NCBI GenBank assembly: GCA_902798595.1
Contig: CADBXE010000007.1
Location: forward strand, 1,800 to 65,799
Origin: an uncultured Erysipelotrichaceae bacterium
GTDB lineage: Bacteria; Bacillota_I; Bacilli_A; RFN20; CAG-826
Direction: 5' to 3'
DNA: 64,000 nt
Position numbers and translations under genes: made by a program. Under the pieces are notes generated by a model, which was given only the letters and a program-made list of their open reading frames with translations, ran no database searches and was not told where the DNA came from. Below are positions 12,469 to 33,274 of the stretch, one piece after another (within the stretch, counting starts at the first letter, position 1; each line of letters begins with the position of its first letter).

Positions 12469-15186
12469 TTAGGCGAAGATGCTTCTCCAAGTATTGAAGT
12501 TTGTTTCGCTTGCTGGATAGTCGCAATAAGAACCAACACAAGCATGTAAAGCTAAACCATACGATTTGCCAGCATCAGTGCCCACCGCGCTATAAACCAC
12601 TAATTCATTGTATGCATCCATTGCTTCAAGAATCACATCTGTATATTGAGCATAAGAACTATTAGCTTTAATCTTGTTCATGGCGTCGTAAGCATCGATT
12701 AAACCGAAACTACTAACTTCATCGAAACATTTAGCGGTCCTAAGAAGGTTCTTGAATGAAGAGAGATTGGTTTTAGCTTTGTCTTTAATAGCAGCGGCAA
12801 AAGCTTCAAACTTTTCAAGGTAATTCTCCATCTTAGATAAATCTAAGTAAGAGAGTGTTTGGTCATTATCTCCATGATAATAACAATCAATAAAGGAATC
12901 GCAGCAAGCTTTTAAAACTCTTTCAGTTGGTTCATAAGCATATAAATCATCAATCCAGCCTTCATAATCCCAACCATCACCAAGTTCAGATTCTTCGGAA
13001 CCAATCATGTAATTGAAGTATTTAGAATTGATTTCGGCAATATCTTGAACTTGCATTAAGCAAGCATCGTAGCCAATGAATTCAAGTTTATCGGTAAGAG
13101 CGTTCTTTTGGAAGACGTTCTTCATTGCACTTTCAACTTCAGAAGCTGTTAAACCATCATCGCTATAATTTTCATCGAAACAGACACCGCCAAGACCACC
13201 ACCGTGGTTCCATAAAACGAGACCAACTTTTTCTGCTGGATAGTTTTCAAGACCCCAGTTAATAAATGATTCTAAGGTATTAGGATTACCCATACTGGCT
13301 CTAGCAATCTTTTCATCTAAAACAAGTTGTCCGTTATCAGCGTGGAAACGGCAGAGTTTACTTGCATCAATTTGAGGATTGGTCCATTTCTTAGCGCCAC
13401 CCGTTTGAATAACAAGATTGATATCATCTGGTTGATTTGGAACATTGAGCATTTCAGCGATGTCTTCTGAAGCAGCACCACCGCTGTCGCCCCAGCCCCA
13501 ACCCCAGCCCCAGTCGCCACCACTTTCAAGGTCGGCGCCACAGATGTAGAACAAGATTGTCCAGGCATCACCGGCTGGTTCGTTAACTTCAAAGGTAAAT
13601 GAAGCGCTGATTTCTTCCTTGTTAGCGTTTAATGCATAAGCGGTAACTGTTGCTTCACCAGCAGAAAGAGCGTTGACTAAACCATTTTCATCTACTGTTG
13701 CAACTGTTTCGTTATTAGAAGTCCAAAGATATGGATATTGGTTAGCGTTAGCTGGTGTAAAGTCAATTTCAATTTGAGCAGTCTTGCCAACAAGAAGATT
13801 TTCTGGTCCTCTTAAAGCAAAGCTTTCAGGATAGACTGGTCTTTGTTCACCAGTGACGAATAAGTCAAAGTTGAAGACTTTACGATATGTACGGAAATTA
13901 ATAACCGCATTAGCTTTACGAGCTTTGTATGTTGTGCTTAATCTAGCAACATCCCAGCCATCTTCCTCTAATACTTTGCTATATTTAGCATCAATAGAAC
14001 CCTTGTCTGATGTTTCAGCATGGAAACCCGCGCCAAATTGTTCATCGGTAGCGGTACCGTTTTTCCATTCACCTGTGCTATATGGAACAGGAACTGGAAC
14101 CCAAACATCTTTTTCTTCAACGAATTTTTCAAAAGGTTGAATTGGGAAAGCATTAGCTTTTACGAAGACAGTAATGTTAGCACTAGCGTCTTCAAATGTT
14201 ACTTTAACTTCTTGTTCACCTGGAACCTCATCATCGAAACCTTGAGTATCATAATCTTGGATTTCAATTTGAGAATTGTCAGTATAGAAAGCAGTAACGG
14301 TTAAATCTAATTCGTCATCGAGTTCATAACCGATACCGGCTTTATTATCAATAACTTCGATCTTTACTAATTTAGCAGGGTTAACAGTAACGTTTATTTT
14401 ATATGACTCATCGTTATACTTAACGATTAATTCTTGTTCACCACTTGTGAAGTTATCATAACCATAAACTTCATATTTATCCGCTTCTAATTCTTCAGTA
14501 TGGCCGTCAGAATAGTTAGCGATAACAGTAAGATTTAATTCATCACCGATTTCATAGCCGTTTTCTGCTTGGTTGTCAGTAACAACGATATTTGTTAAGA
14601 CAACTGGTTTTGGGTTAACAGTAACGGTAATATTAGCAATTTTGTCTTGGTATGTAACCACTAAGACTTGTTGACCATCGTTTTGATTATCAAATGGAGT
14701 AACATCGTAATCAGATAATTCTTCAGTATGGCCATCAGAGTAATTAGCGGTGACTTTAATATCTAATTCGTCATCAATTTCATAACCGGTTGATGCCTTA
14801 TTATCGACAACGGTAATGTTTTCCAGAACGACAGGTCTTGGCTTAACATAGACGTTAACAACAGCAATCTTACCTTTGTAGTTAACGGTGACAGATTGAA
14901 CGCCTGAATACTCATTGTAGAATCCACTAGCCTCATAGTCTGTGACCTCTTCAGAGGAACCATCAGAGTAATTAGCTTTAACAGTAAGATTCAATGATTC
15001 GCCAATTTCGTAACTGGCTTTGTTGTTAGTGACGGAGATATCAACAAGTATTTTTTCTTGCACTTGCGATGTTTCGCCGCTGAATGATGATGAAAGCGTG
15101 CCCATGGGTAGATCACACGCGGAAAGGCTTACCATCCCGAGGAGGGAAGCAATGCCAACAATGAATGTTTTCCGAATCTTAATCAT
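12469..15186 (-). CDS. Surface lipoprotein: four Ig-like repeats + Big_2-like domain + clostripain (peptidase C11)-like domain
   Basis: Lipobox LSAC. Four repeats of about 85 aa carry ANYSDG(H/S)(T/S)EE. A Big_2-like segment follows (LWTSNNETVATVDENGLV). C11 hallmarks are present: WTILFYICGADLE, LVLWNHGGG (His) and IGYDACLM (Cys). Confidence 0.8.
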   Translation of the reverse strand: MIKIRKTFIVGIASLLGMVSLSACDLPMGTLSSSFSGETSQVQEKILVDISVTNNKASYEIGESLNLTVKANYSDGSSEEVTDYEASGFYNEYSGVQSVTVNYKGKIAVVNVYVKPRPVVLENITVVDNKASTGYEIDDELDIKVTANYSDGHTEELSDYDVTPFDNQNDGQQVLVVTYQDKIANITVTVNPKPVVLTNIVVTDNQAENGYEIGDELNLTVIANYSDGHTEELEADKYEVYGYDNFTSGEQELIVKYNDESYKINVTVNPAKLVKIEVIDNKAGIGYELDDELDLTVTAFYTDNSQIEIQDYDTQGFDDEVPGEQEVKVTFEDASANITVFVKANAFPIQPFEKFVEEKDVWVPVPVPYSTGEWKNGTATDEQFGAGFHAETSDKGSIDAKYSKVLEEDGWDVARLSTTYKARKANAVINFRTYRKVFNFDLFVTGEQRPVYPESFALRGPENLLVGKTAQIEIDFTPANANQYPYLWTSNNETVATVDENGLVNALSAGEATVTAYALNANKEEISASFTFEVNEPAGDAWTILFYICGADLESGGDWGWGWGWGDSGGAASEDIAEMLNVPNQPDDINLVIQTGGAKKWTNPQIDASKLCRFHADNGQLVLDEKIARASMGNPNTLESFINWGLENYPAEKVGLVLWNHGGGLGGVCFDENYSDDGLTASEVESAMKNVFQKNALTDKLEFIGYDACLMQVQDIAEINSKYFNYMIGSEESELGDGWDYEGWIDDLYAYEPTERVLKACCDSFIDCYYHGDNDQTLSYLDLSKMENYLEKFEAFAAAIKDKAKTNLSSFKNLLRTAKCFDEVSSFGLIDAYDAMNKIKANSSYAQYTDVILEAMDAYNELVVYSAVGTDAGKSYGLALHACVGSYCDYPASETNFNTWRSIFA
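14150..15060 (-). repeat. Four tandem, diverged coding repeats (~255 nt each) encoding Ig-like domains
   Basis: Repeated protein blocks V(L/K)xN(I/V)xVxDNxAxxGYE(I/L)(D/G)DEL(D/N)(I/L)xVxAxY(S/T)D read from the translation. Confidence 0.8.
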
Positions 15187-17121: not shown

Positions 17122-18204
17122 TTATATGCTGCGTCTTCGTTTTCCGGTCTCTTGATAATAAAGATCTTTTTCTTTGTACATCATAGAGTCTGATTCTCTT
17201 AATAATTCTTCAATAGTTTGTTCCTTTGAGACACGATAACTATAGCCGATAGCGCAACTATATTTTGTTTCAGAAACTTTCTTACGAATGCGTTCTAATA
17301 AAGCAAGAACTTCTTCTTTAGTGGTTTTACGGCAGATAATCATGAATTCGTCGCCACCAACACGATAACCTGCTTGTTTACGTCTAAGTGCACTATTGAA
17401 GCATAAAGCAAGCGTAAGCAAAGCTTCATCACCAGCAGCGTGACCAAAATTATCATTTAAGTACTTTAGACTATTCATATCAATAGACACCAAAGCGGTA
17501 ATTTCTTCAGCGTCATTTTTTAAATCAGCGTAATAAGCATGACGATTAAGCAGGCCTGTTAATGAATCCTTTTTAGTGAGCTGTAAGATGGTCAATTCGT
17601 AGTAAGCGAATAACGCAATAGAAATGGTAATGCAGAACATTGAAGCGTAATCACTACCAAAAATAAACGGTAAGATTAAACCAGAACTGATTGCTAACGC
17701 CATAAAGACAATTGGGATGATCTCAATTAAGCGCTTGTTGCTGCGCATAATTAAAATGATGATTAAGAAGGCACCGTATAGGCCAGTAACAATGTAAGGC
17801 AAATAACCCATGAAAGGCGTTCTTACTAAACTATTGCTTTTATCAATTGTAAAAATAATCCCCGTAAAAATAGAGATGACATTTAAAAGGGCTAAAACCA
17901 TCGCTGGAATAAAAATCATCCAGTTTTGTTTCTTCACTAACGCAAAAGCAATCAAGCCCATAATAAATGGTGTTGCGCTGTATCTAATCGCGGTTAATAC
18001 CGCTCTTATTTGACGATAATCTGGATTCTTAGCAATTCTAAACTCGATAAAAACCACTATCGAGAGAAGCAAAATAATGACGTTAATCATATGAAGACGT
18101 ACAATACGTTTCTTCTCCATGAAAACCGTGGAAATCAAAGAAATAGTAAAAGCGGCAGTAATTAAAATTAGAGGCCAGTTTTGCAATAAGTAGTCCTTAA
18201 ACAT
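17122..18204 (-). CDS. Membrane-bound diguanylate cyclase (GGDEF)
   Basis: An N-terminal domain of six to seven TM segments, followed by LTGLLNR...GHAAGDEAL...RVGGDEF. Confidence 0.85.
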   Translation of the reverse strand: MFKDYLLQNWPLILITAAFTISLISTVFMEKKRIVRLHMINVIILLLSIVVFIEFRIAKNPDYRQIRAVLTAIRYSATPFIMGLIAFALVKKQNWMIFIPAMVLALLNVISIFTGIIFTIDKSNSLVRTPFMGYLPYIVTGLYGAFLIIILIMRSNKRLIEIIPIVFMALAISSGLILPFIFGSDYASMFCITISIALFAYYELTILQLTKKDSLTGLLNRHAYYADLKNDAEEITALVSIDMNSLKYLNDNFGHAAGDEALLTLALCFNSALRRKQAGYRVGGDEFMIICRKTTKEEVLALLERIRKKVSETKYSCAIGYSYRVSKEQTIEELLRESDSMMYKEKDLYYQETGKRRRSI

Positions 18205-18242
18205 ATTTGATATTTAACATATCTATTATACTACGTATTGAA

Positions 18243-18267
18243 CAAAAAAACACGGGTTTAACCGTGT
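18243..18267 (-). terminator. Rho-independent terminator after the upstream GGDEF gene
   Basis: Stem acacgg/ccgtgt followed by a run of seven U on the minus strand. Confidence 0.7.
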
Positions 18268-18268
18268 C

Positions 18269-19396
18269 TTATATTTTTCTTCTTTCAATCGATGAATTTT
18301 TATAGAACTCAGCTTTATTTTCGTACATCTTCTTTTCTGCATCTTTCAAGATGTCAATGATAGTAGCCTTCTTATTTTTCCTATAAGAGTAGCCAACCGA
18401 ACAGCTATAAGGAGTTTCATTAATTTTCTTTTCAAACTCACTGATTACTTCTTCGAGTTGTGATTCCTTAGCGTTGACCGCGATTAATAGGAATTCATCA
18501 CCACCCATGCGATAAGCAGTCATGTTGTTTTGTGCACATTCACTTATGATATGAGCGATAGTAGCAATGGCTTTATCACCTTCGAGGTGACCTTGATTAT
18601 CGTTAATGTGTTTGAGACCATTCATGTCGAATTGGATGACGCCTGTAATGGCTTTACCTAATCTATCGACATCGTGATAATAAGTTTCACGGTTAAATAA
18701 GCCAGTTAAACCATCAATTTGTGTTCTTTCAATATATAAGAACAAATAATAAACAATAGTACTAAATCCGATTGTAGTGCTTAAAACATAAATCTTTCCT
18801 GTTGGATTAAAGAACGATTCAATGATTACCGCAGTGACAACAAATAAAGAACAAACAATAAGAGTTAAACCATGCCACAAGTGTTTTGAAGAAATCTTGA
18901 TGACTGAAATGTAAACGAGGTAAACAAGATATAAAGCAGACACGATATGAGACGTAAATCTCAAAGGACCAGGACTAAATACCAATGTGTCTCCCGTTTC
19001 GGCTAAGTAGAAAGTGACAACAGTTTCCCTAGTCGGAGGAATAAACATTAGAGTATATATAAGGCCATTAACCACTAGTGGTATTAATAGCAAAAGTAGA
19101 TGTTTTTTGCTCTTAACTTCACCACTCATCATCATGAAGAAAAAGATGCAGAATGGGTTTAAAACATAGTTAAAGAACGAACACGCTATCGCTAATGGGA
19201 TGTTTACTACGACGTCTTTAGCATAGTCTTCTAACACCTTAGAAACGGACAAAAGAAGTGCAGCGGAAATGATTACCAACGAATAAATACTAATCCTTGG
19301 ATGTTGCTTAAAGCGAAGGATGGAGTTAGAAATCATCACTAAGCTAATAAGCAATAAGAAGAAATACTTAACTACAAAATCATTCAGCCAATCCAT
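18269..19396 (-). CDS. Membrane-bound diguanylate cyclase (GGDEF), paralog of the neighbour
   Basis: Multi-TM N-terminus, followed by LTGLFNR...GHLEGDKAI...RMGGDEF. Confidence 0.85.
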   Translation of the reverse strand: MDWLNDFVVKYFFLLLISLVMISNSILRFKQHPRISIYSLVIISAALLLSVSKVLEDYAKDVVVNIPLAIACSFFNYVLNPFCIFFFMMMSGEVKSKKHLLLLLIPLVVNGLIYTLMFIPPTRETVVTFYLAETGDTLVFSPGPLRFTSHIVSALYLVYLVYISVIKISSKHLWHGLTLIVCSLFVVTAVIIESFFNPTGKIYVLSTTIGFSTIVYYLFLYIERTQIDGLTGLFNRETYYHDVDRLGKAITGVIQFDMNGLKHINDNQGHLEGDKAIATIAHIISECAQNNMTAYRMGGDEFLLIAVNAKESQLEEVISEFEKKINETPYSCSVGYSYRKNKKATIIDILKDAEKKMYENKAEFYKNSSIERRKI

Positions 19397-19447
19397 ATGC
19401 AGTTATTTTACAATCATGTAAATTAACTAGCAATTATAAGTTATTCG

Positions 19448-19888
19448 TTAGTTCTTCCAATGTTTCAAGTTTGGAAGCATTCCTTTCATATAAGTTTGTG
19501 CTTGCTCTTCAGAAAAACCTTGTGCAACCATGTGTGGCAAGCATGTCTTAATCAGGTCGTCCATATTGTCGTACGTGAATTTTTCATCGTGATAGCACCA
19601 CTGGCAATATTCTTCATTGAAAGAGCCATCTTTTTCTCTGCTCATCAAAGAATCTTGTAAAGGCATGCCACAGCATTGGCATATCAATTGTCTTGGAGAA
19701 CCCAATAAAGTGTTTATCGAAACATCGAATAGTTTTGATAACAATTTGAGGGTTTCTGTATTCGGAGTGGTTTCGCCAGTTTCCCAACGAGAAACAGCTT
19801 GTCTAGTGACCATAACTTTTTCCGCAAGTTCTTCCTGGGATAGACCATTTTTAGTTCTTAATTCTAGTAATATGTCTTTAGTTTCCAT
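19448..19888 (-). CDS. XRE-family HTH regulator with C-terminal zinc-ribbon domain
   Basis: HTH segment GLSQEELAEKVMVTRQAVSRWETGETTP followed by CQCCGMP...CQWCYH. Confidence 0.75.
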   Translation of the reverse strand: METKDILLELRTKNGLSQEELAEKVMVTRQAVSRWETGETTPNTETLKLLSKLFDVSINTLLGSPRQLICQCCGMPLQDSLMSREKDGSFNEEYCQWCYHDEKFTYDNMDDLIKTCLPHMVAQGFSEEQAQTYMKGMLPNLKHWKN

Positions 19889-21478: not shown

Positions 21479-21555
21479 TGGTGACGAATACGGGATTCGA
21501 ACCCGTGAATGCATGCGTGAAAGGCATGTGAGTTAAGCCGCTTCTCCAATTCGCC
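21479..21555 (-). tRNA. trnE: tRNA-Glu (anticodon UUC)
   Basis: GGCGAATTGGAGAAGCGGCTTAACTCACATGCCTTTCACGCATGCATTCACGGGTTCGAATCCCGTATTCGTCACCA. Confidence 0.95.
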
Positions 21556-21558
21556 AAG

Positions 21559-21634
21559 TGGCGCCTACCGAGGGACTCGAACCCACGACCGATCGGTTAA
21601 CAGCCGATAGCTCTACCGACTGAGCTAGGTAGGC
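21559..21634 (-). tRNA. trnN: tRNA-Asn (anticodon GUU)
   Basis: GCCTACCTAGCTCAGTCGGTAGAGC...CTGTTAA...GGGTTCGAGTCCC...GGCGCCA. Confidence 0.95.
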
Positions 21635-21663
21635 AACGCTTTATAAGCGCGAATAAAATATTA

Positions 21664-21855
21664 TCATGTGCGAACAGCAATGACAACAATTTCATCAGTG
21701 GCAAATTCGACATTTAAAGCTTCTTCGATCTTTAACATAGTTTCAACTAAATCCAAAGAATCGAGGCCCAAATCATCTAATTTGTCATCGTAATTAATCG
21801 CACCGATATTAATACGGTCTTTTATTGCTTCTTTTACAATTTCTAATGCTTCCAT
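21664..21855 (-). CDS. Acyl carrier protein-like, C-terminally short (63 aa)
   Basis: Phosphopantetheine attachment motif DDLGLDSLDLVETMLKIEE. The protein ends shortly after helix III, directly against tRNA-Asn. Confidence 0.6.
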   Translation of the reverse strand: MEALEIVKEAIKDRINIGAINYDDKLDDLGLDSLDLVETMLKIEEALNVEFATDEIVVIAVRT

Positions 21856-21864
21856 GTCCCCACT

Positions 21865-21893
21865 ATAATACAATAACTTCCCCCACCCTTCAA
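21865..21893 (-). promoter_or_regulatory. Sigma-A-type promoter of the ACP-like gene (TTGAAG-17 nt-TATTAT), giving a near-leaderless mRNA
   Basis: On the minus strand, the -35 is at 21888-21893 and the -10 at 21865-21870. The -10 ends 9 nt before the ATG. Confidence 0.4.
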
Positions 21894-21894
21894 T

Positions 21895-21922
21895 ATAAAA
21901 AACGGCCTTTTTATGAGCCGTT
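21895..21922 (-). terminator. Hairpin terminator immediately after the pilin-like ORF
   Basis: Minus strand AACGGC-10 nt-GCCGUU followed by UUUUUU. Confidence 0.55.
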
Positions 21923-21927
21923 AGTTT

Positions 21928-22095
21928 TTAGAAAGTAAGCATTTCTGCTTTTGGATTTGTTGTCACTGCTTTAGCAACTTCGCTTGAAACTGAGCTTGTT
22001 AAGTTTTGAAATACAGCGGTAATGCCTGTAGCAACGACACCAAAGACGAGAATTACTAGGATGATACCAAGTAGTTGTCCTTTGATTTCTGACAT
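21928..22095 (-). CDS. Pilin-like small protein (55 aa), absent from the ORF track
   Basis: Own translation: MSEIKGQLLGIILVILVFGVVATGITAVFQNLTSSVSSEVAKAVTTNPKAEMLTF. A strong SD is present (GAAAGGAGGTCAATATG). It has a short charged leader ending in Gly, then a hydrophobic helix. It is the last gene of the filament operon. Confidence 0.65.
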   Translation of the reverse strand: MSEIKGQLLGIILVILVFGVVATGITAVFQNLTSSVSSEVAKAVTTNPKAEMLTF

Positions 22096-22108
22096 ATTGA
22101 CCTCCTTT

Positions 22109-22450
22109 CTACCCGTAAAATCCCACGACTGTCATTCTTGTAATGGCAATAATCATCTTCCTCTTATTGATAATAAGGGGTTGATAATTCGTGAAAATGG
22201 TATAGGTGATTTCCTCACCGATATAAGGGGACGGGTTATTTTTGCAAACAAAATTCACGTCATATGTTTCTTGGACTTGTATCTTAAAACGATTATCGAT
22301 AACACCATTCTTCGAAATAAGATAAGAAATGTTATTCGCTTTAGCGTCCAGGGAAGAATATATGCTTTGAATCGAAATCAGGTCCGCGCCGAAAAGAAAG
22401 CACATTGAGACGAATACCATTGATATGATAAGACCAACTTTATACGACAT
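22109..22450 (-). CDS. Prepilin-like/TadE-like minor pilin candidate (113 aa)
   Basis: The N-terminus MSYKVGLIISMVFVSMCFLFGADL has the same MSxx(K/V)G-plus-hydrophobic layout as the 55-aa pilin. Its start overlaps the upstream gene. Confidence 0.5.
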   Translation of the reverse strand: MSYKVGLIISMVFVSMCFLFGADLISIQSIYSSLDAKANNISYLISKNGVIDNRFKIQVQETYDVNFVCKNNPSPYIGEEITYTIFTNYQPLIINKRKMIIAITRMTVVGFYG

Positions 22451-23114
22451 TTATCAAATCTCCCAAGATGGACAATATCGACATCGTCAAAGTAATGGTT
22501 ATTAAACCCGCACCTACTAAAGGGAAAGAGGACATATTAGCGAGCGAGTTTGATTTCTGTTCCATCATTTCACGATTTCGGTTCCTTGCCAGTTCAGTAA
22601 AAATGACATCAAATTGTTTTAATTGATGAGTGTTTTCTCCCTGATCCACCATTTGATAAATTGATAGCATCAAGCTATGGGTGGACAGTTGATGGAAATT
22701 ATTGGCGAAGTTAACAAATGGTTGAACAGATTTATCTTCATCTATTTCTTTTAGAAGTGTTTCAATTTTATCTTTCAACCAAGAAGAACAATAAGGAATC
22801 AACATGTTGAATGACTGATAGACATTATTTTTATTCTGCACATAGACTTCGAAATAAGAGATGATGGCAATTAATTCATTCTCGCGACTCTTGATTAATG
22901 CTTTTTTCTTATCGTTAAATCTGCCGAGCAAGAAATAATTAATCGCAAAAAGGGATATCAAGCAAAAGATAGCGAAGATGACATTATTTAATAAGAAATA
23001 AATAAGAAACGCTAAACCCAGAATAATGATGTTAACACTCACCACTTTGAGCATTTCTTTGGTGTATGATAAACCGACAAATTCGATTGTTTCTTTTAGA
23101 TTATTTTTCGTCAT
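22440..23114 (-). CDS. Half-size GspF/TadC-like platform membrane protein
   Basis: 224 aa with N-terminal TMs, a cytoplasmic helical domain and C-terminal TMs. The SD is GGAGGGGTGG. It pairs with the neighbouring paralog. Confidence 0.6.
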   Translation of the reverse strand: MTKNNLKETIEFVGLSYTKEMLKVVSVNIIILGLAFLIYFLLNNVIFAIFCLISLFAINYFLLGRFNDKKKALIKSRENELIAIISYFEVYVQNKNNVYQSFNMLIPYCSSWLKDKIETLLKEIDEDKSVQPFVNFANNFHQLSTHSLMLSIYQMVDQGENTHQLKQFDVIFTELARNRNREMMEQKSNSLANMSSFPLVGAGLITITLTMSILSILGDLINVV

Positions 23115-23808
23115 CTTTCCACCCCTCCAAAATAATATTTGTGATACGGCTGACCATTACGTAGATGGACAAAATCAAAAATAGAAAGATAACGACTACT
23201 GAGATTTGATAAAAAGGCGTTTTAACAATATGAGTAAAGAATTGTGATAACGCAAACCTTAGAGAAATGAGAATTACTAAGGTAAGACTCCATAGAACAA
23301 TGAATTCCACTAAGCGAGAACGGTTTGTTGATTCGCAAAACAAGATGTATTCTTCTTTTAAGCGCACTTGATTGACTAGATGTTGACTCATTGAAAGAAT
23401 ATCTCCTCCTTGCTCATTCCATAGTGAAACGGTATCCAAAAACAAACGATAGAGATCGAATTTAAAATATTTGCACAAGTAAGATAGCTTTTCACTCTCA
23501 TCAAAATCCTTTATTGAATCAATAATTTCTCTAGTAGAACTATCCGCGGTGTTATAGCTACTTTCTCTAGCCGCGGACATTGAACCTTTAATGCTTAGAG
23601 AAACAAGATATGAGTTAATAAACTGATAGCACTGATGGTAGCGGCGGGTTTTTGTTCGGTATTTATCAATTTGCCTTCTGACGAGGAAAACGAAGAAAGC
23701 CATCGATAATAAGAAGATAAATAAGCATAGAAAGATGTTTTCGCTCGCCATATAAATCAGGCCTCCAAAGGCTAAAGAGACAAAGGTACCAATTAATAAA
23801 AAGTTCAT
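23101..23808 (-). CDS. Half-size GspF/TadB-like platform membrane protein
   Basis: 235 aa with the same TM-cytoplasmic domain-TM layout. It has a 4-nt ATGA overlap with the ATPase gene. Confidence 0.6.
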   Translation of the reverse strand: MNFLLIGTFVSLAFGGLIYMASENIFLCLFIFLLSMAFFVFLVRRQIDKYRTKTRRYHQCYQFINSYLVSLSIKGSMSAARESSYNTADSSTREIIDSIKDFDESEKLSYLCKYFKFDLYRLFLDTVSLWNEQGGDILSMSQHLVNQVRLKEEYILFCESTNRSRLVEFIVLWSLTLVILISLRFALSQFFTHIVKTPFYQISVVVIFLFLILSIYVMVSRITNIILEGWKDDEK

Positions 23809-24863
23809 TTAGTTCCTCCTAGATAAGTCTTTTTGAATAAATCACTGACATTTGAAATGTTGAGTAAGGCAAGGGCTTTGTCAGACAACGATTTATACTT
23901 TTTATTCTCCCCGTCACTACCATATATTTCTTCCATCTCTTTACCATTAAGGTAAGCAATGGATGAAATGTATCTTAATACCGCACCACTATTGAGGTAC
24001 TTTCTCTTCATGTAGATATAGAAACGCATGTGGTAGGCTATATCCTGATAAACATCGTTAAAATCCATTTTTTGTTCATTCATCATCACCATTCTCACCA
24101 TGCGATATGGGATGCTTTCAACATCAAAGGCATGCAAAGTTGTGATGATGGGATGGCCAGTTAAAGAAGAATTCAAAACATCAATCATTTCTTGACCACG
24201 CGATTCCGCGACTATCAGCCAGTCAGGATTGCTTCTTAATGCGGTTCTCACTAGGCTTTGAATTGAAGCTTTATAACGATTCTCATCAACTTGCCAAATA
24301 TTTAAATCAAGTTTTTTGTCAATTCTAAGCTGGTCTAATTCCAAAATATTGTCTATAACAATGGTTCTGCTATTTTCTCCCATTCTTGTAATGAGATATT
24401 TTTGTAATTCGGTTTTGCCTGAACCAGTTAATCCTCCAATGACAATCGAGACATTAGAACTAACTAAAACATCCAATAATTCACATACTTCTTTGGGAAA
24501 GAATTGCTCATTTTGTTCAATACGCAATTTATTTGATGCTATGCGTACGGAAAAACAAATGCACTCTATATTGTTTTTACGACATATGCTTTGATGCAAA
24601 GCGCTTAAGCGATATTTTCCAAAGGAAACATCTAGTTCCGGACTTTGAAATGAGAATTGTTTTTCAGAAAGGTTAGCGATTTGCCTAATAAAGTCTTTGA
24701 CTAGTTGTGGTTCCACCTCCACATCTCTTCTTAATCTGCCAAAACGGTTATCGATGTAATAAAGAGATTCTCCGTTATAAGAAATATCTGTTACACTTTC
24801 TAAATTTAGAAGGTCTCTTAAGAATGAAGATTCTAGATATTCAATCAATTTCTTCACATCCAT
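23805..24863 (-). CDS. Type II/IV secretion family ATPase (TadA/CpaF/VirB11-like)
   Basis: Walker A GGLTGSGKTE, Asp-box-like TIVIDNILELDQ, Walker B PDWLIVAESRG and His box GHPIITTLHA. Confidence 0.85.
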   Translation of the reverse strand: MDVKKLIEYLESSFLRDLLNLESVTDISYNGESLYYIDNRFGRLRRDVEVEPQLVKDFIRQIANLSEKQFSFQSPELDVSFGKYRLSALHQSICRKNNIECICFSVRIASNKLRIEQNEQFFPKEVCELLDVLVSSNVSIVIGGLTGSGKTELQKYLITRMGENSRTIVIDNILELDQLRIDKKLDLNIWQVDENRYKASIQSLVRTALRSNPDWLIVAESRGQEMIDVLNSSLTGHPIITTLHAFDVESIPYRMVRMVMMNEQKMDFNDVYQDIAYHMRFYIYMKRKYLNSGAVLRYISSIAYLNGKEMEEIYGSDGENKKYKSLSDKALALLNISNVSDLFKKTYLGGTK

Positions 24864-25249
24864 TAGTTGCTCCTTATCTCATAGAAGAGAGTTTTTTCAT
24901 AGTGGTAGTTAAGAACCAGATTCGCTTCAACAGTTACTTCAATTGCCGAACAATTCTCAGAAACGCACAAGGAGTGATTACTAGGATTGTAATAATAAAA
25001 ATCCAAAGTATAATCGTCAGCATATCTTTTCATCAAAGCATTAAAATAAGAGGTTAATTTTTCTTCTAAAGTATCTTTGATAAAAAATGCACCATTATTT
25101 TCATCAACGCCATAGAGGTTTAATGATGTTTCAAATAGAGAAACTGGGACACCGTAAACCAAGCGATTAATACCATTCACTTGATAAGAAATCATAAAGA
25201 AATTAAAGGAGAGAGTGACCACTAATAAGGCAAAAAATATCATCGCCAT
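24863..25249 (-). CDS. Membrane-anchored protein of the filament operon (128 aa), possible minor pilin/assembly factor
   Basis: N-terminal hydrophobic helix MAMIFFALLVVTLSFNFFMI followed by a soluble domain. Both ends overlap neighbouring genes by 1 nt (TAATG). Confidence 0.4.
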   Translation of the reverse strand: MAMIFFALLVVTLSFNFFMISYQVNGINRLVYGVPVSLFETSLNLYGVDENNGAFFIKDTLEEKLTSYFNALMKRYADDYTLDFYYYNPSNHSLCVSENCSAIEVTVEANLVLNYHYEKTLFYEIRSN

Positions 25250-26304
25250 TATTTCACCCCTCCAACGACATAATATTTCGCTTCGTTACTACTTCCAAAT
25301 ATGGGCTTACCCGCGATAAAGCGTAAAGAAAAAGAAACATTAATCTTACTTTTTGAAAAGTCAACAAAATCAACATAAAAGAGCTTATCGTCAAGCTTAT
25401 TCTTACTATTAATTGGAAAATATAAGTTATTTGTTTTGACGTACCCATTTTTTGAATACTCTGATAAATCTAGCGTTGATTTATCGACATACAAAGTATT
25501 TTTCAAAGCCAAGGTAAAATTTGAATCAAAACCAGGAACAGTTTTTAAAGGAAGAGTAACGTTTCCATGGGAATCGTGATTCAAGTTAGGAAACAGGTTA
25601 TTTTGATCATCAAATCTGAGATTGATAACGCTATAAGTTATAGGGAAATAGGAAGAGTAATAGAAATAGTTTTCTTTTAAGTCCAGTCGATAGTAATAAT
25701 CGTTTTCGATATAGTCACCAAAATAGCAAAAATCAAATGCTTCAGTGACCTCATTCATTCTTTCTCCGTCTCCATAAAAGCCAAAGCTTTTTGTTACATA
25801 ATAATTATTCTTTAAATCAGAGGCAGTCCATCCAGGCTGGATAAGCGGATAAAACTTCGCGCTATAGGACTTTAAAACCTTTCTTGATGGCGATGCTAGA
25901 ATGTCGAATTTGAGGATAAGTCCATCGTTAGTTAAATATCTTTTGATCGGTATAGTAAATGTCGTTTCAATTAAGGCGTGATTTTGATAGTCAAAAGGAG
26001 CGTGATTGGTGGTCGAGTATGGGTCTCCCGACATGCTGCATAATTGCATTCTTTCGATAATCCTTTGATTCTCAATATCAGCGCGATATGTGAACTTAGC
26101 GTCGAAATCAGGATCTCCGATGTTGAAAGGTCCGTATACATCAGAAGCAAAATAATCAGTCCTCACTTTTGAGTTTGAATTTGGATATGGGGATGATAAG
26201 GACATGTGCGAGGGCTGATTATCAGGAGCGATATCATTGTCTTTCTTTGAATTAGCGCAGGATGTGAGAAAGACGATAATAAGAAAGGGGATAAGTTTAC
26301 GCAT
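25249..26304 (-). CDS. Lipoprotein of the filament operon (351 aa), Tyr/Asn/Asp/Phe-rich, no recognisable domain
   Basis: I prefer the start MRKLIPFLIIVFLTSCANS (lipobox LTSC). It overlaps the upstream stop by 8 nt (ATGCGTAA). Confidence 0.6.
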   Translation of the reverse strand: MRKLIPFLIIVFLTSCANSKKDNDIAPDNQPSHMSLSSPYPNSNSKVRTDYFASDVYGPFNIGDPDFDAKFTYRADIENQRIIERMQLCSMSGDPYSTTNHAPFDYQNHALIETTFTIPIKRYLTNDGLILKFDILASPSRKVLKSYSAKFYPLIQPGWTASDLKNNYYVTKSFGFYGDGERMNEVTEAFDFCYFGDYIENDYYYRLDLKENYFYYSSYFPITYSVINLRFDDQNNLFPNLNHDSHGNVTLPLKTVPGFDSNFTLALKNTLYVDKSTLDLSEYSKNGYVKTNNLYFPINSKNKLDDKLFYVDFVDFSKSKINVSFSLRFIAGKPIFGSSNEAKYYVVGGVK

Positions 26305-26620
26305 GACGGAAAGCCTCCAAAAACTTAAACATGGCTTGCTTTTTAAAACGATAAAAGTTTGCCTTGGAATAGAGGCCGGTCCACCAATCACGATAGTTTT
26401 GGTAAAAGAATTCGTTGTTAATCAAATTCTTTTCTCTTGGGTCTAACATAGCGTATGCGCGCTCGACTTTATAAAGATATACATCATAAGGCGCATCAAT
26501 CTCAGCGATTAACTCACCACGCATCTTTAGTAAAGTCATCTGTTTGGCTTCAAAGTACTTTTCAGAGACTTTTTCTACTAAATCACAAAGCTCTTTGAAG
26601 GTCTTTTCCGTTAGACTCAT
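26297..26620 (-). CDS. Small sigma-70 region-4-like/HTH protein (107 aa), first gene of the filament operon
   Basis: The segment LDPREKNLINNEFFYQ...WWTGLYSKANFYRFKKQAMFKFLEAF resembles region 4 of ECF/ArpU/YlxM-like proteins. It has a strong SD (TAGGAGGCTG). Confidence 0.4.
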   Translation of the reverse strand: MSLTEKTFKELCDLVEKVSEKYFEAKQMTLLKMRGELIAEIDAPYDVYLYKVERAYAMLDPREKNLINNEFFYQNYRDWWTGLYSKANFYRFKKQAMFKFLEAFRHA

Positions 26621-26775
26621 ATAACAGCCTCCTATTAACTAGTACGGCGACAAATTCATTTTTTTCCTAAAAAATTACATATTTTTTTGAAGAATTTTCT
26701 TTTAATTCATAGAATTAACTTTTTTTCATTTTTTTCATAAATAAAATGCGTTACAATTGTACGTAATTAAAAACT

Positions 26776-27318
26776 ATGATTGTTCTAAGTGGCGCAAGTG
26801 CATCGGGAAAAACAGAAGCGGCAAAAATGCTGATGGCGAAGTATGGCATTAGAAAGGCCATAACTACCACCACTCGTTCAATGCGCGTTAATGAACAAAA
26901 CGGCAGAGATTATTTTTTCGTTTCAAAAGAAAAATTCAACCAATTAATCGCTGAAGATAAATTCGTTGAATATACACTCTATAACGGCAATTATTACGGC
27001 TCTACTAAAGACCAAATTGCTAATGATCGTGTCGTGGTTATTGATTTAGAAGGTTTGAAGTCATATTCTCGTCTCAATGATAAGAGAATCGTGACTTTTT
27101 ATTTATCGACCTGTGAAGAGATTCGCTATAAAAGGATGCTTGAAAGAGGCGATAAAGAAGAAGATGCGAGAAGAAGATTAGAAAACGACCGCAAAGTGTT
27201 CGCGGATAATCAAATTCCTAATGTCAATTTCTCAATTGATTCAGAAAGCAAGTCCATCGAAGAAGTTGCTGACGAAATCTATAAACTTTACATGGATTAT
27301 CTAAAAGCTAATTTTTAA
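26776..27318 (+). CDS. gmk: Guanylate kinase
   Basis: P-loop SGASASGKT followed by TTTTRSMRVNEQNGRDYFFVSKEKF...NYYGSTKD. Confidence 0.85.
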   Translation: MIVLSGASASGKTEAAKMLMAKYGIRKAITTTTRSMRVNEQNGRDYFFVSKEKFNQLIAEDKFVEYTLYNGNYYGSTKDQIANDRVVVIDLEGLKSYSRLNDKRIVTFYLSTCEEIRYKRMLERGDKEEDARRRLENDRKVFADNQIPNVNFSIDSESKSIEEVADEIYKLYMDYLKANF

Positions 27319-32587: not shown

Positions 32588-33274
32588 CTATTTAACGTAG
32601 AATAAAGCGTTCTTATCAAAAGCGCCAAAGGCAAAGCCAAAATTTAAAAAGAGTGGTAAGTTTTTATAGGCTTTAAATGTGGTTCTTGAGAGGAATTCTT
32701 CACAGTTAATGTTTTCAATATAGCCATATGGATTATAGATGGTGATTTGATCGTTTCCCAAATCCATCATAGTCACAACTGAAAAATGCAACGTCCATTC
32801 TTCTTGGTATTTAGCCGCCCATTCAATAGCGACTGGGTTATTTTTGGCTAATGAGTTATGTATTTCTTTCAAATAATTATCGTTAGCAAGATATGTTTTC
32901 TTCGCAAACTTTTTATCGCTGATTGATTCATTAATTTCCTTTAAAAAGCCACTTGTGCTTGATGTAGATACTGAACCATTATTCTTTTCATCTAAATCAT
33001 CTTCTGTGACAACGTTGCCATAATATTCAGAAATCATTTCAATAGAGGCATAACCACATGAAACATGTTGTGTCACTAATTTTAAACCTGTGACTTCCAC
33101 TTTTTGTGAGTAAGTAACGTCATCTTTTAAATATTCATAATTAGCATTCATGTGATTCGTCTTAATGCCCAAAATACCAAAAGGCACGACAATAGCGAGA
33201 GCTACGACAAAGAAAAAGCCCGCGATGACGGATGCAATAATTCTTCTATTTCTTCTAGACTTTGACATTCTCAT
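32588..33274 (-). CDS. Membrane-anchored papain-like (peptidase C39-like) protein
   Basis: A signal-anchor, then QHVSCGYASIEMISEYYG (candidate catalytic Cys), with a His later in WTLHFSVV. Confidence 0.5.
   Translation of the reverse strand: MRMSKSRRNRRIIASVIAGFFFVVALAIVVPFGILGIKTNHMNANYEYLKDDVTYSQKVEVTGLKLVTQHVSCGYASIEMISEYYGNVVTEDDLDEKNNGSVSTSSTSGFLKEINESISDKKFAKKTYLANDNYLKEIHNSLAKNNPVAIEWAAKYQEEWTLHFSVVTMMDLGNDQITIYNPYGYIENINCEEFLSRTTFKAYKNLPLFLNFGFAFGAFDKNALFYVK

What the first reader, a model, noticed from the sequence alone, without database searches (positions are those of the whole stretch)
21895..26620. Compact eight-gene Tad/archaeal-pilus-like type IV filament operon with non-canonical composition
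Seen in the sequence:
- Eight minus-strand ORFs are chained by overlapping or abutting stops and starts: 26297/26304, 25249, 24863, 23805/23808, 23101/23114 and 22440/22450. A 13-nt gap carrying an AGGAGG SD precedes the last gene, and a hairpin terminator follows it.
- The gene order is: sigma-r4-like protein, lipoprotein, membrane-anchored protein, secretion ATPase (GGLTGSGKTE, PDWLIVAESRG, GHPIITTLHA), two ~230-aa polytopic proteins with the TM-cytoplasmic domain-TM layout of GspF/TadB/TadC, a 113-aa prepilin-like protein, and a 55-aa pilin-like protein.

Established knowledge: one T2SSE ATPase, two half-size platform proteins and a very small hydrophobic pilin make up the Tad/Flp (type IVc) arrangement. 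The Tad lineage has been argued to derive from archaeal pili (type IV filament phylogenies by Denise, Abby and Rocha).

What is unusual:
- No prepilin peptidase (A24/TadV), TadZ or TadG is present.
- The pilin lacks Glu5.
- A Tyr/Asn-rich lipoprotein and a small sigma-like protein are translationally coupled to the machine.
- The surrounding genome looks like an Acholeplasma/Erysipelotrichia-type lineage with no cell-wall genes in 64 kb. This last point is inference.

A minimal filament system of this composition would be worth characterising as a possible adhesion, DNA-uptake or secretion device.
Basis: partly seen in the sequence, partly recalled or inferred. Interest (0 to 1): 0.85.

Follow-up and report, generated by a model that had tools for sequence, protein, structure and literature searches.

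The report
Minimal Tad-like pilus operon, plasmid-related
Uncultured rumen Bacilli carry a conserved eight-gene chromosomal operon that looks like a stripped-down type IV (Tad-like) pilus machine, and its only annotated relatives found here (in a plasmid collection) are an unexplained "VirB11 plus unknown genes" block in Gram-positive conjugative plasmids of the pLS20 type.

Summary
Eight minus-strand genes (21928-26620) overlap or abut, each has a GGAGG-type ribosome-binding site, and one terminator follows the last. All eight are under purifying selection (dN/dS 0.03-0.24). Order is kept in 12 species-level rumen genomes (MAGs) and, where contigs are complete, in relatives with 25-30% identity, always between gmk and an acyl-carrier-protein gene.

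The filament-machine reading is supported:
- g4 is a T2SSE ATPase.
- g5 and g6 are divergent paralogous single-domain GspF/TadBC-like platform proteins, judged from an AlphaFold model, Foldseek and profile comparisons.
- g7 and g8 carry short K-x-G leaders followed by a hydrophobic helix.
- The first 19 residues of g8 are almost invariant.

Genes g3-g8 are collinear with pLS20-family conjugation genes 36-41 ("putative VirB11" plus five unknowns). Here the block is chromosomal and no T4SS genes were found.

Gene g1 is an MG284/MPN403-family activator-like protein. Gene g2 is a fast-evolving surface protein built of tandem Ig-like domains.

It is not a canonical Tad system: it has no TadZ, no Flp motif and no peptidase in the window. 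An unlinked peptidase is common, so that absence counts for little. I rate it a new variant of a known kind. No filament has been demonstrated.

The parts
26702..26718 (.). Perfect palindrome TTAATTC-N3-GAATTAA in the gmk/g1 divergent intergenic region; candidate operator
   Evidence: It is unique in the window, with 0 matches in 100 shuffles. It occurs once, at the same place, in all 16 close loci that include the region. It is invariant in the 7-species upstream alignment while the flanks vary. Its function is inferred.
26297..26620 (-). g1: 107-aa cytoplasmic MG284/MPN403-family protein, a likely transcriptional activator of the operon
   Evidence: NCBIfam NF045770 matches at 60.5 bits against a cutoff of 37.3. 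Two of three distant orthologues also pass. PHROG 248 'transcriptional activator' matches at E 1e-4 and ArpU at E 0.028. dN/dS is 0.07-0.10. No plasmid counterpart was found.
25249..26304 (-). g2: 351-aa secreted/lipid-anchored protein (lipobox LTSC) with a disordered linker and tandem beta-sandwich (Ig/Fn3-like) domains; the fastest-evolving component and a candidate adhesin
   Evidence: The AlphaFold model has pLDDT 83, and residues ~47-330 are all-beta. Foldseek matches the multi-Ig stalks of C5a peptidase (E 1e-5), transglutaminase barrels and Cpe0147 adhesin repeats. Identity is 39-54% where the ATPase is 75-89%. dN is 0.36. There is no Pfam hit. Distant orthologues have a signal peptide but no Cys.
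24863..25249 (-). g3: 128-aa bitopic protein (N-terminal TM with no leader, extracellular domain with two conserved Cys); positional counterpart of pLS20 gene 36
   Evidence: The TM segment spans residues 2-20. Conserved C95/C100 appear in alignment A8. hhalign against the plasmid gene-36 family is only weak (probability 12%, E 2.5e-3) but it is the best partner and collinear. g3 is unrelated to g7.
23805..24863 (-). g4: 352-aa secretion ATPase of the TadA/VirB11/archaeal group with intact Walker A, Walker B Glu and His box
   Evidence: Pfam T2SSE matches at E 2.3e-23. NCBIfam gives VirB11 107 bits and TadA-type 103 bits, both far below cutoffs. In the PDB the best matches are afGspE at 1e-12, VirB11 at 8e-11 and CpaF at 4e-9. 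Identity to 'CpaF/VirB11 family' ATPases of Firmicutes conjugative plasmids is 33-36%.
23101..23808 (-). g5: 235-aa platform protein (2 TM, cytoplasmic helical bundle, 2 TM), TadB/GspF-like; orthologue-like to pLS20 gene 38
   Evidence: The AlphaFold model has pLDDT 95.9. The only compact Foldseek hits are GspF-family cytoplasmic domains (OutF, EpsF, PilC; target-normalised TM 0.59-0.64, E-values only 1-6). Three of 128 family members hit Pfam T2SSF. hhalign to the plasmid p38 family gives 97.5%, E 7e-12, and one p38 member passes the T2SSF gathering score.
22440..23114 (-). g6: 224-aa second platform protein, a paralogue of g5 (TadC-like); orthologue-like to pLS20 gene 39
   Evidence: hhalign of g5 against g6 gives 86%, E 5e-6. 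One orthologue hits T2SSF at 1.3e-5. hhalign to the plasmid p39 family gives 97.4%, E 9e-12. BLASTP to the P. larvae protein annotated 'FlaJ' gives 6e-9.
22109..22450 (-). g7: 113-aa minor-pilin-like protein with leader M-x-S-K-[IVL]-[GS], a hydrophobic helix and a small beta domain; homologue of pLS20 gene 40
   Evidence: See alignment A3 and the orthologue sequences. hhalign to the plasmid p40 family gives 90.8%, E 1.2e-6. dN/dS is 0.10. There is no Pfam TadE hit.
21928..22095 (-). g8: 55-aa candidate major pilin with leader MSEIKG followed by a hydrophobic helix and a variable C-terminus
   Evidence: The N-terminal 19 residues are nearly invariant, even in lineages where g5 is 29% identical. 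dN/dS is 0.07-0.12. A strong SD (AAAGGAGG) lies at 22101-22108. Only weak profile similarity to archaeal type IV pilins was found (E 0.2-0.4). Cleavage and polymerisation are inferred.
21901..21922 (-). Intrinsic terminator hairpin ending the operon
   Evidence: The stem has 7 bp and is followed by TTTTATATTG. It is the only minus-strand terminator-like site in 21500-27000.

Best explanation
The operon encodes a minimal, monoderm type IV filament (Tad-like) machine that is a core chromosomal trait of a lineage of uncultured rumen/gut Bacilli.

**Proposed mechanism**
1. The g4 ATPase hexamer docks on a membrane platform made of the paralogous single-T2SSF-domain proteins g5 and g6.
2. The 55-aa g8 protein is inserted in the membrane. 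Its six-residue MSEIKG leader is probably removed by an unlinked A24 prepilin peptidase.
3. g8 is then polymerised into a thin helix-only filament.
4. Polymerisation is primed by the pilin-like g7 and perhaps assisted by the membrane-anchored g3.
5. The Ig-like surface protein g2 acts with the filament as an adhesin or filament-associated surface factor.
6. g1, a small MG284/MPN403-family activator-like protein, controls transcription from the region holding the conserved palindrome.

The most likely function is adhesion or cell-cell contact.

**Evolution.** The g3-g8 core is homologous to genes 36-41 of pLS20-type conjugation operons. The same module therefore exists in two settings: coupled to a T4SS on plasmids, and free-standing on this chromosome.

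**Shown versus inferred.** Shown here: gene order, coding status, homologies, predicted fold of the platform proteins, and conservation. Inferred: leader cleavage, polymerisation, the role of g2, the regulatory role of g1, and the biological function.
For: - **Operon structure and translation signals:**
- **Purifying selection on all eight genes:**
- **Conserved order and conserved housekeeping flanks** (hflX/gmk upstream, ACP downstream) down to 25-30% g5 identity.
- **ATPase:** T2SSE domain with intact motifs.
- **Platform proteins:**
  - The AlphaFold model of g5 has pLDDT 95.9.
  - GspF-family cytoplasmic domains are the only compact structural matches.
  - g5 and g6 are paralogues.
  - Family members and plasmid homologues hit Pfam T2SSF; one passes the gathering score.
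- **Pilin-like features:** invariant MSEIKG plus a hydrophobic N-terminus with a variable C-terminus in g8, and an SK[IVL]G leader in g7.
- **Gene order** ATPase, platform, platform, TadE-like matches tadA-tadB-tadC-tadE. This is established knowledge of tad loci from my own memory, not checked in a paper here. Tad and Epd systems are the ones with two single-T2SSF platform genes and short pilins (PMC6668835).
- **Collinear homology to pLS20 genes 36-41:**
  - ATPase: 33-36% identity.
  - g5~p38: 97.5%.
  - g6~p39: 97.4%.
  - g7~p40: 90.8%.
  - Negative-control pairs: mostly at or below 2.4%. Higher non-orthologue values were the g5/g6 cross-paralogue pairs and g8~p40 at 30%.
- **g2:** tandem Ig-like folds and the fastest evolution in the operon.
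Against: - No A24 prepilin peptidase is present in the operon or the window.
- No Pfam Flp, TadE or T2SSF hit is obtained with the window proteins themselves.
- g8 shows only insignificant similarity to known pilins (E 0.2-0.6) and no detectable homology to plasmid gene 41.
- The Foldseek E-values for g5 are poor (1-6), although TM-scores and hit consistency are good.
- g3 has no prepilin-type leader.
- The nearest annotated relatives sit in T4SS operons, where the ATPase is assumed to be VirB11 (PMC8557374).
- A 26% GC sister lineage keeps the slot with a catalytically degenerate ATPase and no g8-like gene, so filament assembly is not universal in the family.
- No filament has been observed for this module anywhere.
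Confidence: 0.6

Rival explanations
1. The operon is a domesticated or relict piece of a Gram-positive conjugation system. Its ATPase and membrane partners would energise or gate DNA transfer through a T4SS encoded elsewhere, or they would be a remnant of an integrated pLS20-like element, rather than building a pilus.
For: The best annotated homologues are the 'CpaF/VirB11 family' ATPases and flanking genes of conjugative plasmids. These include pLS20-type Bacillus, Listeria, Paraclostridium, Paenibacillus and B. badius plasmids, where the block lies next to VirD4, VirB4, pLS20_p028 (VirB6-like) and a peptidoglycan hydrolase. The pLS20 literature treats gene 37 as the T4SS VirB11 (PMC8557374).
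Against: - No VirB4, VirD4, relaxase, VirB6 or VirB8-like gene was found among the ORFs of the 64-kb window that were annotated, or in the flanks of any chromosomal relative.
- The locus sits in the same housekeeping slot (gmk...ACP) across very deep divergence, and base composition is unremarkable.
- Purifying selection is strong.
- Canonical VirB11 proteins do not partner with T2SSF-type platform proteins (established knowledge).
- The ATPase scores higher against CpaF (76-78 bits) than against proteobacterial VirB11 (61-65 bits).
Confidence: 0.15
2. The operon encodes a DNA-uptake (competence) pseudopilus, functionally equivalent to ComG, in a lineage with reduced genomes.
For: Type IV filaments in monoderm Bacilli are classically competence pseudopili with an unlinked peptidase (established knowledge; PMC6668835). 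The machine is small and lacks a retraction ATPase. Its plasmid relatives are tied to DNA transfer.
Against: - ComGA is only the fifth-best NCBIfam match (62 bits).
- The platform is split into two single-domain proteins, unlike ComGB (established knowledge).
- The pilins lack Glu5 and the ComGC-type leader.
- No comEA, comEC or dprA gene lies in the window ORFs that were annotated.
- A fast-evolving Ig-like surface protein is translationally coupled to the machine, which fits adhesion better.
Confidence: 0.12
3. The operon is a piston-type secretion or surface-display device, or a non-filament membrane complex. Its ATPase and platform would export or position g2 and the small membrane proteins without forming an extended pilus.
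For: g2 is always encoded immediately upstream and is extracytoplasmic. T2SS-like pseudopili work this way (established knowledge). A sister lineage retains the membrane proteins with a dead ATPase and extra anchored proteins.
Against: g2 has its own Sec or lipoprotein signal and needs no dedicated exporter. The extreme N-terminal conservation of g8 with a free-varying C-terminus is the signature of a polymerising pilin. Plasmid homologues lack g2 altogether.
Confidence: 0.1

Closest known systems
pLS20-family conjugation operon, genes 36-41 ('putative VirB11' gene 37 plus five genes of unknown function; Val-Calvo et al. 2021, PMC8557374) and the equivalent blocks on Listeria, Paraclostridium, Paenibacillus larvae and Bacillus badius plasmids
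   Same: The order, sizes and membrane topologies match: ~126-aa N-anchored protein, ATPase, ~268-aa and ~243-aa polytopic proteins, ~120-aa N-anchored protein, ~47-aa one-TM protein. ATPase identity is 33-36%. Profile-profile matches are g5~38 (97.5%), g6~39 (97.4%) and g7~40 (90.8%). The P. larvae gene-40 homologue begins MSELKG, like g8.
   Different: - The plasmid block is embedded in a T4SS operon with VirD4, VirB4, a VirB6-like protein, VirB1 and a VirB2-like protein. The window block is chromosomal and has none of these.
- The window ATPase is ~50 aa shorter.
- g8 and plasmid gene 41 are not detectably homologous, and g3~36 is only weak.
- g1 and g2 have no plasmid counterpart.
- The function of the plasmid block is itself unknown, and the field states that Gram-positive T4SS lack pili.
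Tad/Flp (type IVc) pilus
   Same: A single ATPase is followed by two contiguous single-T2SSF-domain platform genes, then a TadE-like small anchored protein. The pilin is very small and helix-only. There is no retraction ATPase. CpaF is the best non-Firmicutes tblastn match (76-78 bits).
   Different: There is no TadZ, no TadV in the locus, no TadG, and no Flp G/XXXXEY motif or Glu5. Pfam Flp_Fap, TadE and T2SSF models do not hit the window proteins. The pilin gene is last rather than first. An activator-like protein and an Ig-like lipoprotein are added.
Archaeal Epd-like / adhesion type IV pili
   Same: The leader is very short with K at -2, G at -1 and Q at +1, and Glu5 is absent. Q at +1 resembles EppA substrates; that comparison is from memory and was not tested. 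Platform genes are half-size and the pilins are short (PMC6668835). The best PDB sequence match of the ATPase is archaeal afGspE 2oap. The weak best pilin matches are archaeal.
   Different: The host is bacterial. There is no FlaH/KaiC-like second ATPase and no EppA/PibD in the locus. The similarities are at motif or weak-score level only.
ComG competence pseudopilus of Bacilli
   Same: It is a monoderm type IV filament in the same class, with a peptidase commonly unlinked.
   Different: ComGB is one protein with two T2SSF domains. ComGC-GG pilins are larger and have Glu5. The ComGA model scores only 62 bits.
VirB11 of Gram-negative T4SS
   Same: The ATPase is of similar size (~350 aa), and TIGR02788 is nominally the top NCBIfam model (107 bits).
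   Different: The score is far below the 250-bit cutoff. Identity to plasmid VirB11 is 22-23%. No VirB partners are present, and the T2SSF-type partners found here are foreign to VirB systems.

Membership tests
Type IV filament superfamily (generic) | PilB/TadA/VirB11-type hexameric secretion ATPase (Pfam T2SSE) | tested here: met
   PF00437 matches at E 2.3e-23, 82.9 bits against a cutoff of 24.9. Walker A, the Walker B Glu and the His box are intact.
Type IV filament superfamily (generic) | Polytopic inner-membrane platform protein of the GspF/PilC/TadBC (T2SSF) family | tested here: met
   The support is indirect but convergent:
- The g5 AlphaFold model (pLDDT 95.9) matches only GspF-family cytoplasmic domains compactly (target-normalised TM ~0.6).
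- Three of 128 g5 relatives and one of 10 g6 relatives hit PF00482.
- g5 and g6 align with plasmid families at 97%, and members of those families reach or approach the T2SSF gathering score.
- The window proteins themselves do not hit PF00482.
Type IV filament superfamily (generic) | Pilins with a class III signal peptide (short charged leader, G at -1, ~20 hydrophobic residues) | tested here: inconclusive
   g8 (MSEIKG|QLLGIILVILVFG) and g7 (MSYKVG|LIISMVFV) fit the pattern, and the motifs are conserved. There is no significant match to any pilin model, and cleavage is untested.
Type IV filament superfamily (generic) | A24 prepilin peptidase | tested here: not met
   None is present in the operon. 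No GxGD-type motif appears in the six-frame translation of the 64-kb window, and none appears among the annotated window ORFs. The rest of the genome could not be searched. An unlinked peptidase is common.
Tad/Flp (type IVc) pilus | Two contiguous platform genes, each with one T2SSF domain (TadB, TadC), next to the ATPase | tested here: met
   g5 and g6 are paralogues (hhalign 86%, E 5e-6). Each has one cytoplasmic bundle between TM segments, and they lie directly after g4.
Tad/Flp (type IVc) pilus | Flp-family pilin (PF04964, G/XXXXEY processing motif) | tested here: not met
   No Flp_Fap hit was found at E<=1. The residue at +5 is Ile, and there is no Glu-Tyr.
Tad/Flp (type IVc) pilus | TadZ (ParA/MinD-like) and TadV encoded with the system | tested here: not met
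   No such domains occur in any of the eight proteins or their neighbours.
Tad/Flp (type IVc) pilus | TadE/TadF pseudopilins (PF07811) | tested here: inconclusive
   There is no Pfam hit. g7 has the right size, a leader and TM helix, and the right position after the platform genes.
pLS20-family conjugation block (genes 36-41) | Collinear six-gene block with matching sizes/topologies and homologous ATPase, two polytopic proteins and the 120-aa protein | tested here: met
   Shown. Gene 36 is only weakly matched (12%), and gene 41 is not detected.
pLS20-family conjugation block (genes 36-41) | Embedded in a conjugation operon with VirD4, VirB4, VirB6-like, VirB8, VirB1 and relaxase | tested here: not met
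   The window and all chromosomal relatives are flanked by hflX, gmk, ACP, tRNAs and nusA-infB. No T4SS domain was found.
ComG competence pseudopilus | ComGA ATPase, double-domain ComGB, and ComGC-type pilins with Glu5 | tested here: not met
   The ComGA model scores 62.5 bits against a cutoff of 300. The platform is split and Glu5 is absent.
MG284/MPN403 family (g1 only) | C-terminal domain matching NCBIfam NF045770 above its cutoff | tested here: met
   The window g1 scores 60.5 bits against 37.3. L022 and L024 orthologues score 52 and 51 bits, while the L020 orthologue does not match.

The most novel reading that the evidence does not exclude
This is a free-living, chromosomally fixed version of a previously unrecognised Firmicutes-specific class of type IV filament: an ATPase, two half-size platform proteins and mini-pilins with six-residue K-G leaders. 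Its plasmid-borne copies (pLS20 genes 36-41, and the blocks on pXO2-like, Listeria and Paenibacillus plasmids) would then build a Tad-like conjugative or mating pilus. That would overturn the view that Gram-positive conjugation systems have no pili. The rumen lineage would show the module working on its own with a dedicated Ig-like adhesin and an MG284-family regulator.
Probability: 0.3. Interest if true: 0.85.

Novelty: new variant of a known kind. Interest (0 to 1): 0.62.

Why it matters
- **An uncharacterised surface machine.** It would define a very small, self-contained type IV filament system that standard Pfam and TXSScan-type models largely miss. It is fixed in the core genome of an abundant uncultured rumen/gut Bacilli lineage, so it is a candidate colonisation or cell-contact organelle. 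The g5 family has 261 clusters at 50% identity, and the only source name seen among ten clusters sampled was 'hypothetical protein'.
- **A testable idea for plasmid biology.** It gives a functional hypothesis for a conserved six-gene block of unknown function in pLS20-type and related Gram-positive conjugative plasmids, whose ATPase has been filed as 'VirB11'. If that block makes a pilus, the long-standing question of how Gram-positive donors find recipients in liquid becomes directly testable.
- **A context for an orphan family.** It links the MG284/MPN403 protein family, which has no known function, to the regulation of a defined operon.

Tried and rejected
- **Direct family searches.** Pfam, NCBIfam, PHROG and PADLOC scans of the eight proteins gave hits only for g4 and g1. 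There is no defence-system link and no phage link beyond an activator-like match for g1.
- **Profile searches against PDB sequences.** Searches with the g5, g1, g8 and g7 profiles found nothing significant.
- **g3 versus g7.** They are not paralogues (hhalign 1%).
- **g1 and g2 versus plasmid upstream genes.** Comparisons with ConAn1 (gene 28), Ses, Tie, DUF916 and others found no relation.
- **Homologue search with g1.** It returned only 15 close relatives and no Mycoplasma proteins. A remembered MG284...MG287 (ACP) synteny in Mycoplasma genitalium therefore could not be checked and is not used as evidence.
- **Literature.**
  - Searches for MG284/MPN403 found nothing relevant.
  - Searches for a pLS20 or Gram-positive conjugative pilus found no paper describing one.
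- **Mobile-island idea.** The tRNA genes just downstream suggested an island, but the conserved housekeeping flanks and flat composition argue against it.
- **A24 peptidase.** A regex scan of the window was negative.
- **Failed or limited look-ups.** One look-up failed because the start codon was wrong. No proper ATPase phylogeny was built, because no reference sequences or tree software were available. Score rankings were used instead.

Full report

Yes. ORF listing shows eight minus-strand genes between 21928 and 26620. Their stops and starts overlap by 8, 1, 1, 4, 14 and 11 nt, and a 13-nt gap with AAAGGAGG precedes the 55-aa ORF. Every gene has a GGAGG-type Shine-Dalgarno sequence upstream. 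The only minus-strand terminator-like hairpin in 21500-27000 lies directly after the last gene.

The genes are real coding sequences:
- Against the two closest species-level relatives, dN/dS is 0.03-0.24 wherever dS was not saturated (g3 against L007 and g7 against L008 gave no estimate). The value is 0.07-0.12 for the 55-aa ORF and 0.10 for the 113-aa ORF.
- A competing antisense 128-aa ORF, which some gene callers prefer, is interrupted in every other species, whereas g7 stays 112-114 aa.

**2. Where does it occur?**

The identical ATPase is found on gut/rumen metagenome contigs with the same neighbours. Twelve species-representative genomes carry all eight genes in the same order. All are uncultured MAGs, mostly rumen-derived by their isolate names, titled 'Bacilli bacterium', 'uncultured Bacillales' or 'uncultured Erysipelotrichaceae'.

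| Gene | Identity across those genomes |
|---|---|
| ATPase (g4) | 75-89% |
| g8 | 64-87% |
| g7 | ~66% |
| g2 | 39-54% |

An exhaustive HMMER search with g5 finds only 261 clusters at 50% identity among 1.84 billion proteins, most of them ~225-260 aa. Among ten clusters sampled, the only source name was 'hypothetical protein'.

Members with only 25-30% identity to g5 still keep the gene order as far as their contigs reach. The full set g1-g8 is seen in L020 and L022/L023, g1-g6 in the truncated L024, and g3-g8 in the truncated L031. They also sit in the same chromosomal slot: guanylate kinase (divergent) and often hflX upstream, an acyl-carrier-protein gene downstream, and in one lineage the nusA-infB operon beyond that. 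L033/L034 occupies the same slot but lacks g1 and a g8-like gene (section 9).

Base composition across the window is flat. The rest of the window encodes ordinary chromosomal functions. This is a vertically inherited core locus, not an island, despite the tRNA genes just downstream.

**3. The machine parts**

*g4 (ATPase).* It has a T2SSE domain (E 2.3e-23) with an intact Walker A, Walker B Glu and His box. Curated models rank VirB11 (107 bits) and an actinobacterial TadA type (103 bits) first, both far below their cutoffs. Among solved structures the best sequence matches are archaeal afGspE, Brucella VirB11 and CpaF.

*g5 (platform).* It gets no Pfam hit itself. With a 128-sequence alignment, AlphaFold gives a very confident model (pLDDT 95.9): two TM helices, a cytoplasmic helical bundle, then two TM helices. 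In Foldseek against the PDB, the only compact matches are the five GspF-family cytoplasmic-domain structures (OutF, EpsF x3, PilC). Target-normalised TM is 0.59-0.64 and rmsd 3.6-4.4 A, although the E-values are weak at 1-6. Three of 128 family members hit Pfam T2SSF.

*g6 (platform).* It is a paralogue of g5 (hhalign 86%, E 5e-6 over 147 columns). One orthologue hits T2SSF at 1.3e-5.

Two contiguous single-domain platform genes next to one ATPase is the arrangement that Denise et al. single out for Tad and the archaeal Epd-like pili (PMC6668835).

**4. Pilin-like parts**

*g8.* Orthologues share an almost invariant N-terminus, MSEIKGQLLGIILVI-VFG, followed by a freely varying C-terminus. This holds even in a lineage whose g5 is 29% identical. 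That pattern, together with K at -2, G at -1 and a 20-residue hydrophobic helix, is what a class III (prepilin) signal looks like. There is no Glu5.

*g7.* Orthologues begin M-x-S-K-[IVL]-[GS], followed by a hydrophobic helix and a ~85-residue domain.

*g3.* It starts directly with its TM helix and has two conserved cysteines. It is not related to g7.

No pilin model or solved pilin matches significantly. The best meaningful hits of the g8 profile are archaeal type IV pilins at E 0.2-0.4. Processing and polymerisation are therefore inferred, not shown.

No A24 peptidase is present in the operon or the window. Unlinked peptidases are normal for Tad, MSH and Com systems, so this absence is weak evidence either way.

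**5. The accessory parts**

*g1.* It passes the NCBIfam cutoff for the MG284/MPN403 C-terminal domain (60.5 bits against 37.3), as do two of three distant orthologues. It also weakly matches phage ArpU and 'transcriptional activator' families. No literature on that family was found.

*Upstream region.* About 85 nt upstream of g1 lies a perfect palindrome, TTAATTC-N3-GAATTAA. It is unique in the window, present once at the same place in all 16 close loci, and invariant while its flanks vary. It is a plausible operator.

*g2.* It has a lipobox in the window sequence, but only a signal peptide in distant orthologues. AlphaFold (pLDDT 83) predicts a disordered linker followed by tandem beta-sandwich domains. 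Foldseek matches these to the Ig/Fn3-like stalks of C5a peptidase, transglutaminase barrels and adhesin repeats. g2 is the fastest-evolving gene, as expected for an exposed adhesin or antigen.

Neither g1 nor g2 has a counterpart in the plasmid systems described next.

**6.

A translated search of the plasmid collection puts the ATPase closest to 'CpaF/VirB11 family' proteins of Firmicutes conjugative plasmids: 33-36% identity over 81-89% of its length, with E-values down to 5e-49.

In B. velezensis pDSYZ, a pLS20-family plasmid, the ATPase sits in this run of genes: 128-aa TM protein, ATPase, 267 aa, 243 aa, 120 aa, 48 aa, 47 aa. The pLS20-family paper lists exactly this as genes 36-41:
- gene 36: 126 aa, N-terminal TM
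- gene 37: 'putative VirB11'
- gene 38: 268 aa
- gene 39: 243 aa
- gene 40: 120 aa
- gene 41: 47 aa

All but the ATPase are marked 'unknown'. The paper states that these plasmids encode no pilus homologues (PMC8557374). Later papers repeat that Gram-positive T4SS seem to lack pili, and no paper describing such a pilus was found.

Profile-profile comparison gives one-to-one matches:

| Pair | hhalign probability | E-value |
|---|---|---|
| g5 ~ gene 38 | 97.5% | 7e-12 |
| g6 ~ gene 39 | 97.4% | 9e-12 |
| g7 ~ gene 40 | 90.8% | 1e-6 |
| g3 ~ gene 36 | 12% (weak) | 2.5e-3 |
| g8 ~ gene 41 | none | - |

Most unrelated pairs score at or below 2.4%. The exceptions are the g5/g6 cross-paralogue pairs and g8 against gene 40 at 30%.

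In B. badius pPM400 the two membrane proteins are annotated 'type II secretion system F family'. One passes the Pfam gathering score. The P. larvae homologue of gene 40 begins MSELKG.

On plasmids the block lies among VirD4, VirB4, VirB6-like and hydrolase genes. In the window and all chromosomal relatives no such gene was found.

The ATPase also scores higher against alphaproteobacterial CpaF (76-78 bits, full length) than against proteobacterial VirB11 (61-65 bits) or TrbB. It is therefore not 'firmly VirB11'.

**7. Interpretation**

The best reading (confidence ~0.6) is a minimal Tad-like type IV filament machine of monoderm Bacilli:
- g4 powers assembly on a g5/g6 platform.
- g8 is the helix-only major subunit.
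- g7, and perhaps g3, prime or anchor it.
- g2 is an associated Ig-like surface factor.
- g1 regulates the operon.

The likely function is adhesion or cell-cell contact.

Rivals are a split or relict conjugation function (0.15), a competence pseudopilus (0.12), and a non-filament secretion or display complex (0.10). The evidence for and against each is listed in the structured fields.

The locus fails several defining tests for canonical Tad (no TadZ, no Flp motif, no peptidase in the locus, no Pfam hits) and for ComG and VirB systems. It should therefore not be filed as a member of any of them. It works like a Tad system, and it is homologous to the pLS20 36-41 block.

**8. Novelty and score**

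I rate it a new variant of a known kind. The superfamily is known, but this composition, its chromosomal fixation in an uncultured lineage, and its kinship to an unexplained plasmid block were not found described in the literature that could be searched.

Interest is 0.62. The locus is solid and conserved, and it opens a testable question about Gram-positive mating pili. However, no filament, no processing and no phenotype has been shown, and the peptidase question is open.

**9. A caution from a sister lineage**

In a 26% GC lineage the same slot holds a version whose ATPase has lost the Walker A Ser/Thr, the Walker B Glu and the His box. It has no g1 and no g8-like gene, and it has two extra anchored proteins instead. 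The family is therefore not functionally uniform.

Noticed in passing
window 26702-26718: A perfect palindrome, TTAATTC-N3-GAATTAA, lies in the gmk/g1 intergenic region. It is invariant in all close relatives and unique in the window, so it is a likely operator. A different 9-nt-arm palindrome occupies the same place in the distant locus L024 (2011-2031).
   Followed up: partly
L033 7506-13271 and L034 872-6637: In a 26% GC sister lineage, the same gmk...ACP slot holds a variant with a catalytically degenerate ATPase (GENESGKK, no Walker B Glu, no His box). It has no g1 and no small pilin gene, and it has two extra membrane-anchored proteins (320 and 195 aa). This may be a decaying or repurposed machine.
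   Followed up: partly
L027 8403-12262 (B. velezensis pDSYZ), L026, L028, L029, L030: pLS20-family and related Gram-positive conjugative plasmids carry a block of ATPase, two T2SSF-like proteins and small anchored proteins (genes 36-41). It looks like a Tad-like filament module, although the literature states these systems have no pilus. These plasmids also encode a separate VirB2-like two-TM protein.
   Followed up: partly
window 22022-22408 (+): An antisense 128-aa ORF overlapping g7/g8 is what gene callers annotated on several public contigs (L001-L003, L005), hiding g7 and g8. It is not conserved in other species.
   Followed up: yes
window 21664-21873 (-) and tRNAs 21479-21634: A small acyl-carrier-protein gene (PP-binding, TTG start as listed) follows the operon terminator in every relative, even the most distant. 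tRNA-Asn and tRNA-Glu follow it. From memory only, M. genitalium MG284 lies a few genes upstream of its ACP gene MG287; this could not be checked.
   Followed up: no
window 17122-19888: Two adjacent GGDEF-domain membrane proteins and an HTH_3/Zn-ribbon regulator lie 2-4 kb downstream of the operon. c-di-GMP control of the pilus operon is conceivable but untested.
   Followed up: no
window 32588-33274 and 12469-15186: A Peptidase_C39_2 (C39-like cysteine peptidase) gene and a 905-aa Big_3/Big_2/Peptidase_C11 surface protease gene are present in the window. No link to the operon was found.
   Followed up: no
phage-collection records OR848116.1 and OR846771.1 ('Listeria phage LM 4-14-1 / 4-11-1'): These unannotated 21-kb 'phage' records encode the same CpaF/VirB11-family ATPase as Listeria plasmids (33.6% identity to g4). 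They may be plasmid fragments rather than phages.
   Followed up: no
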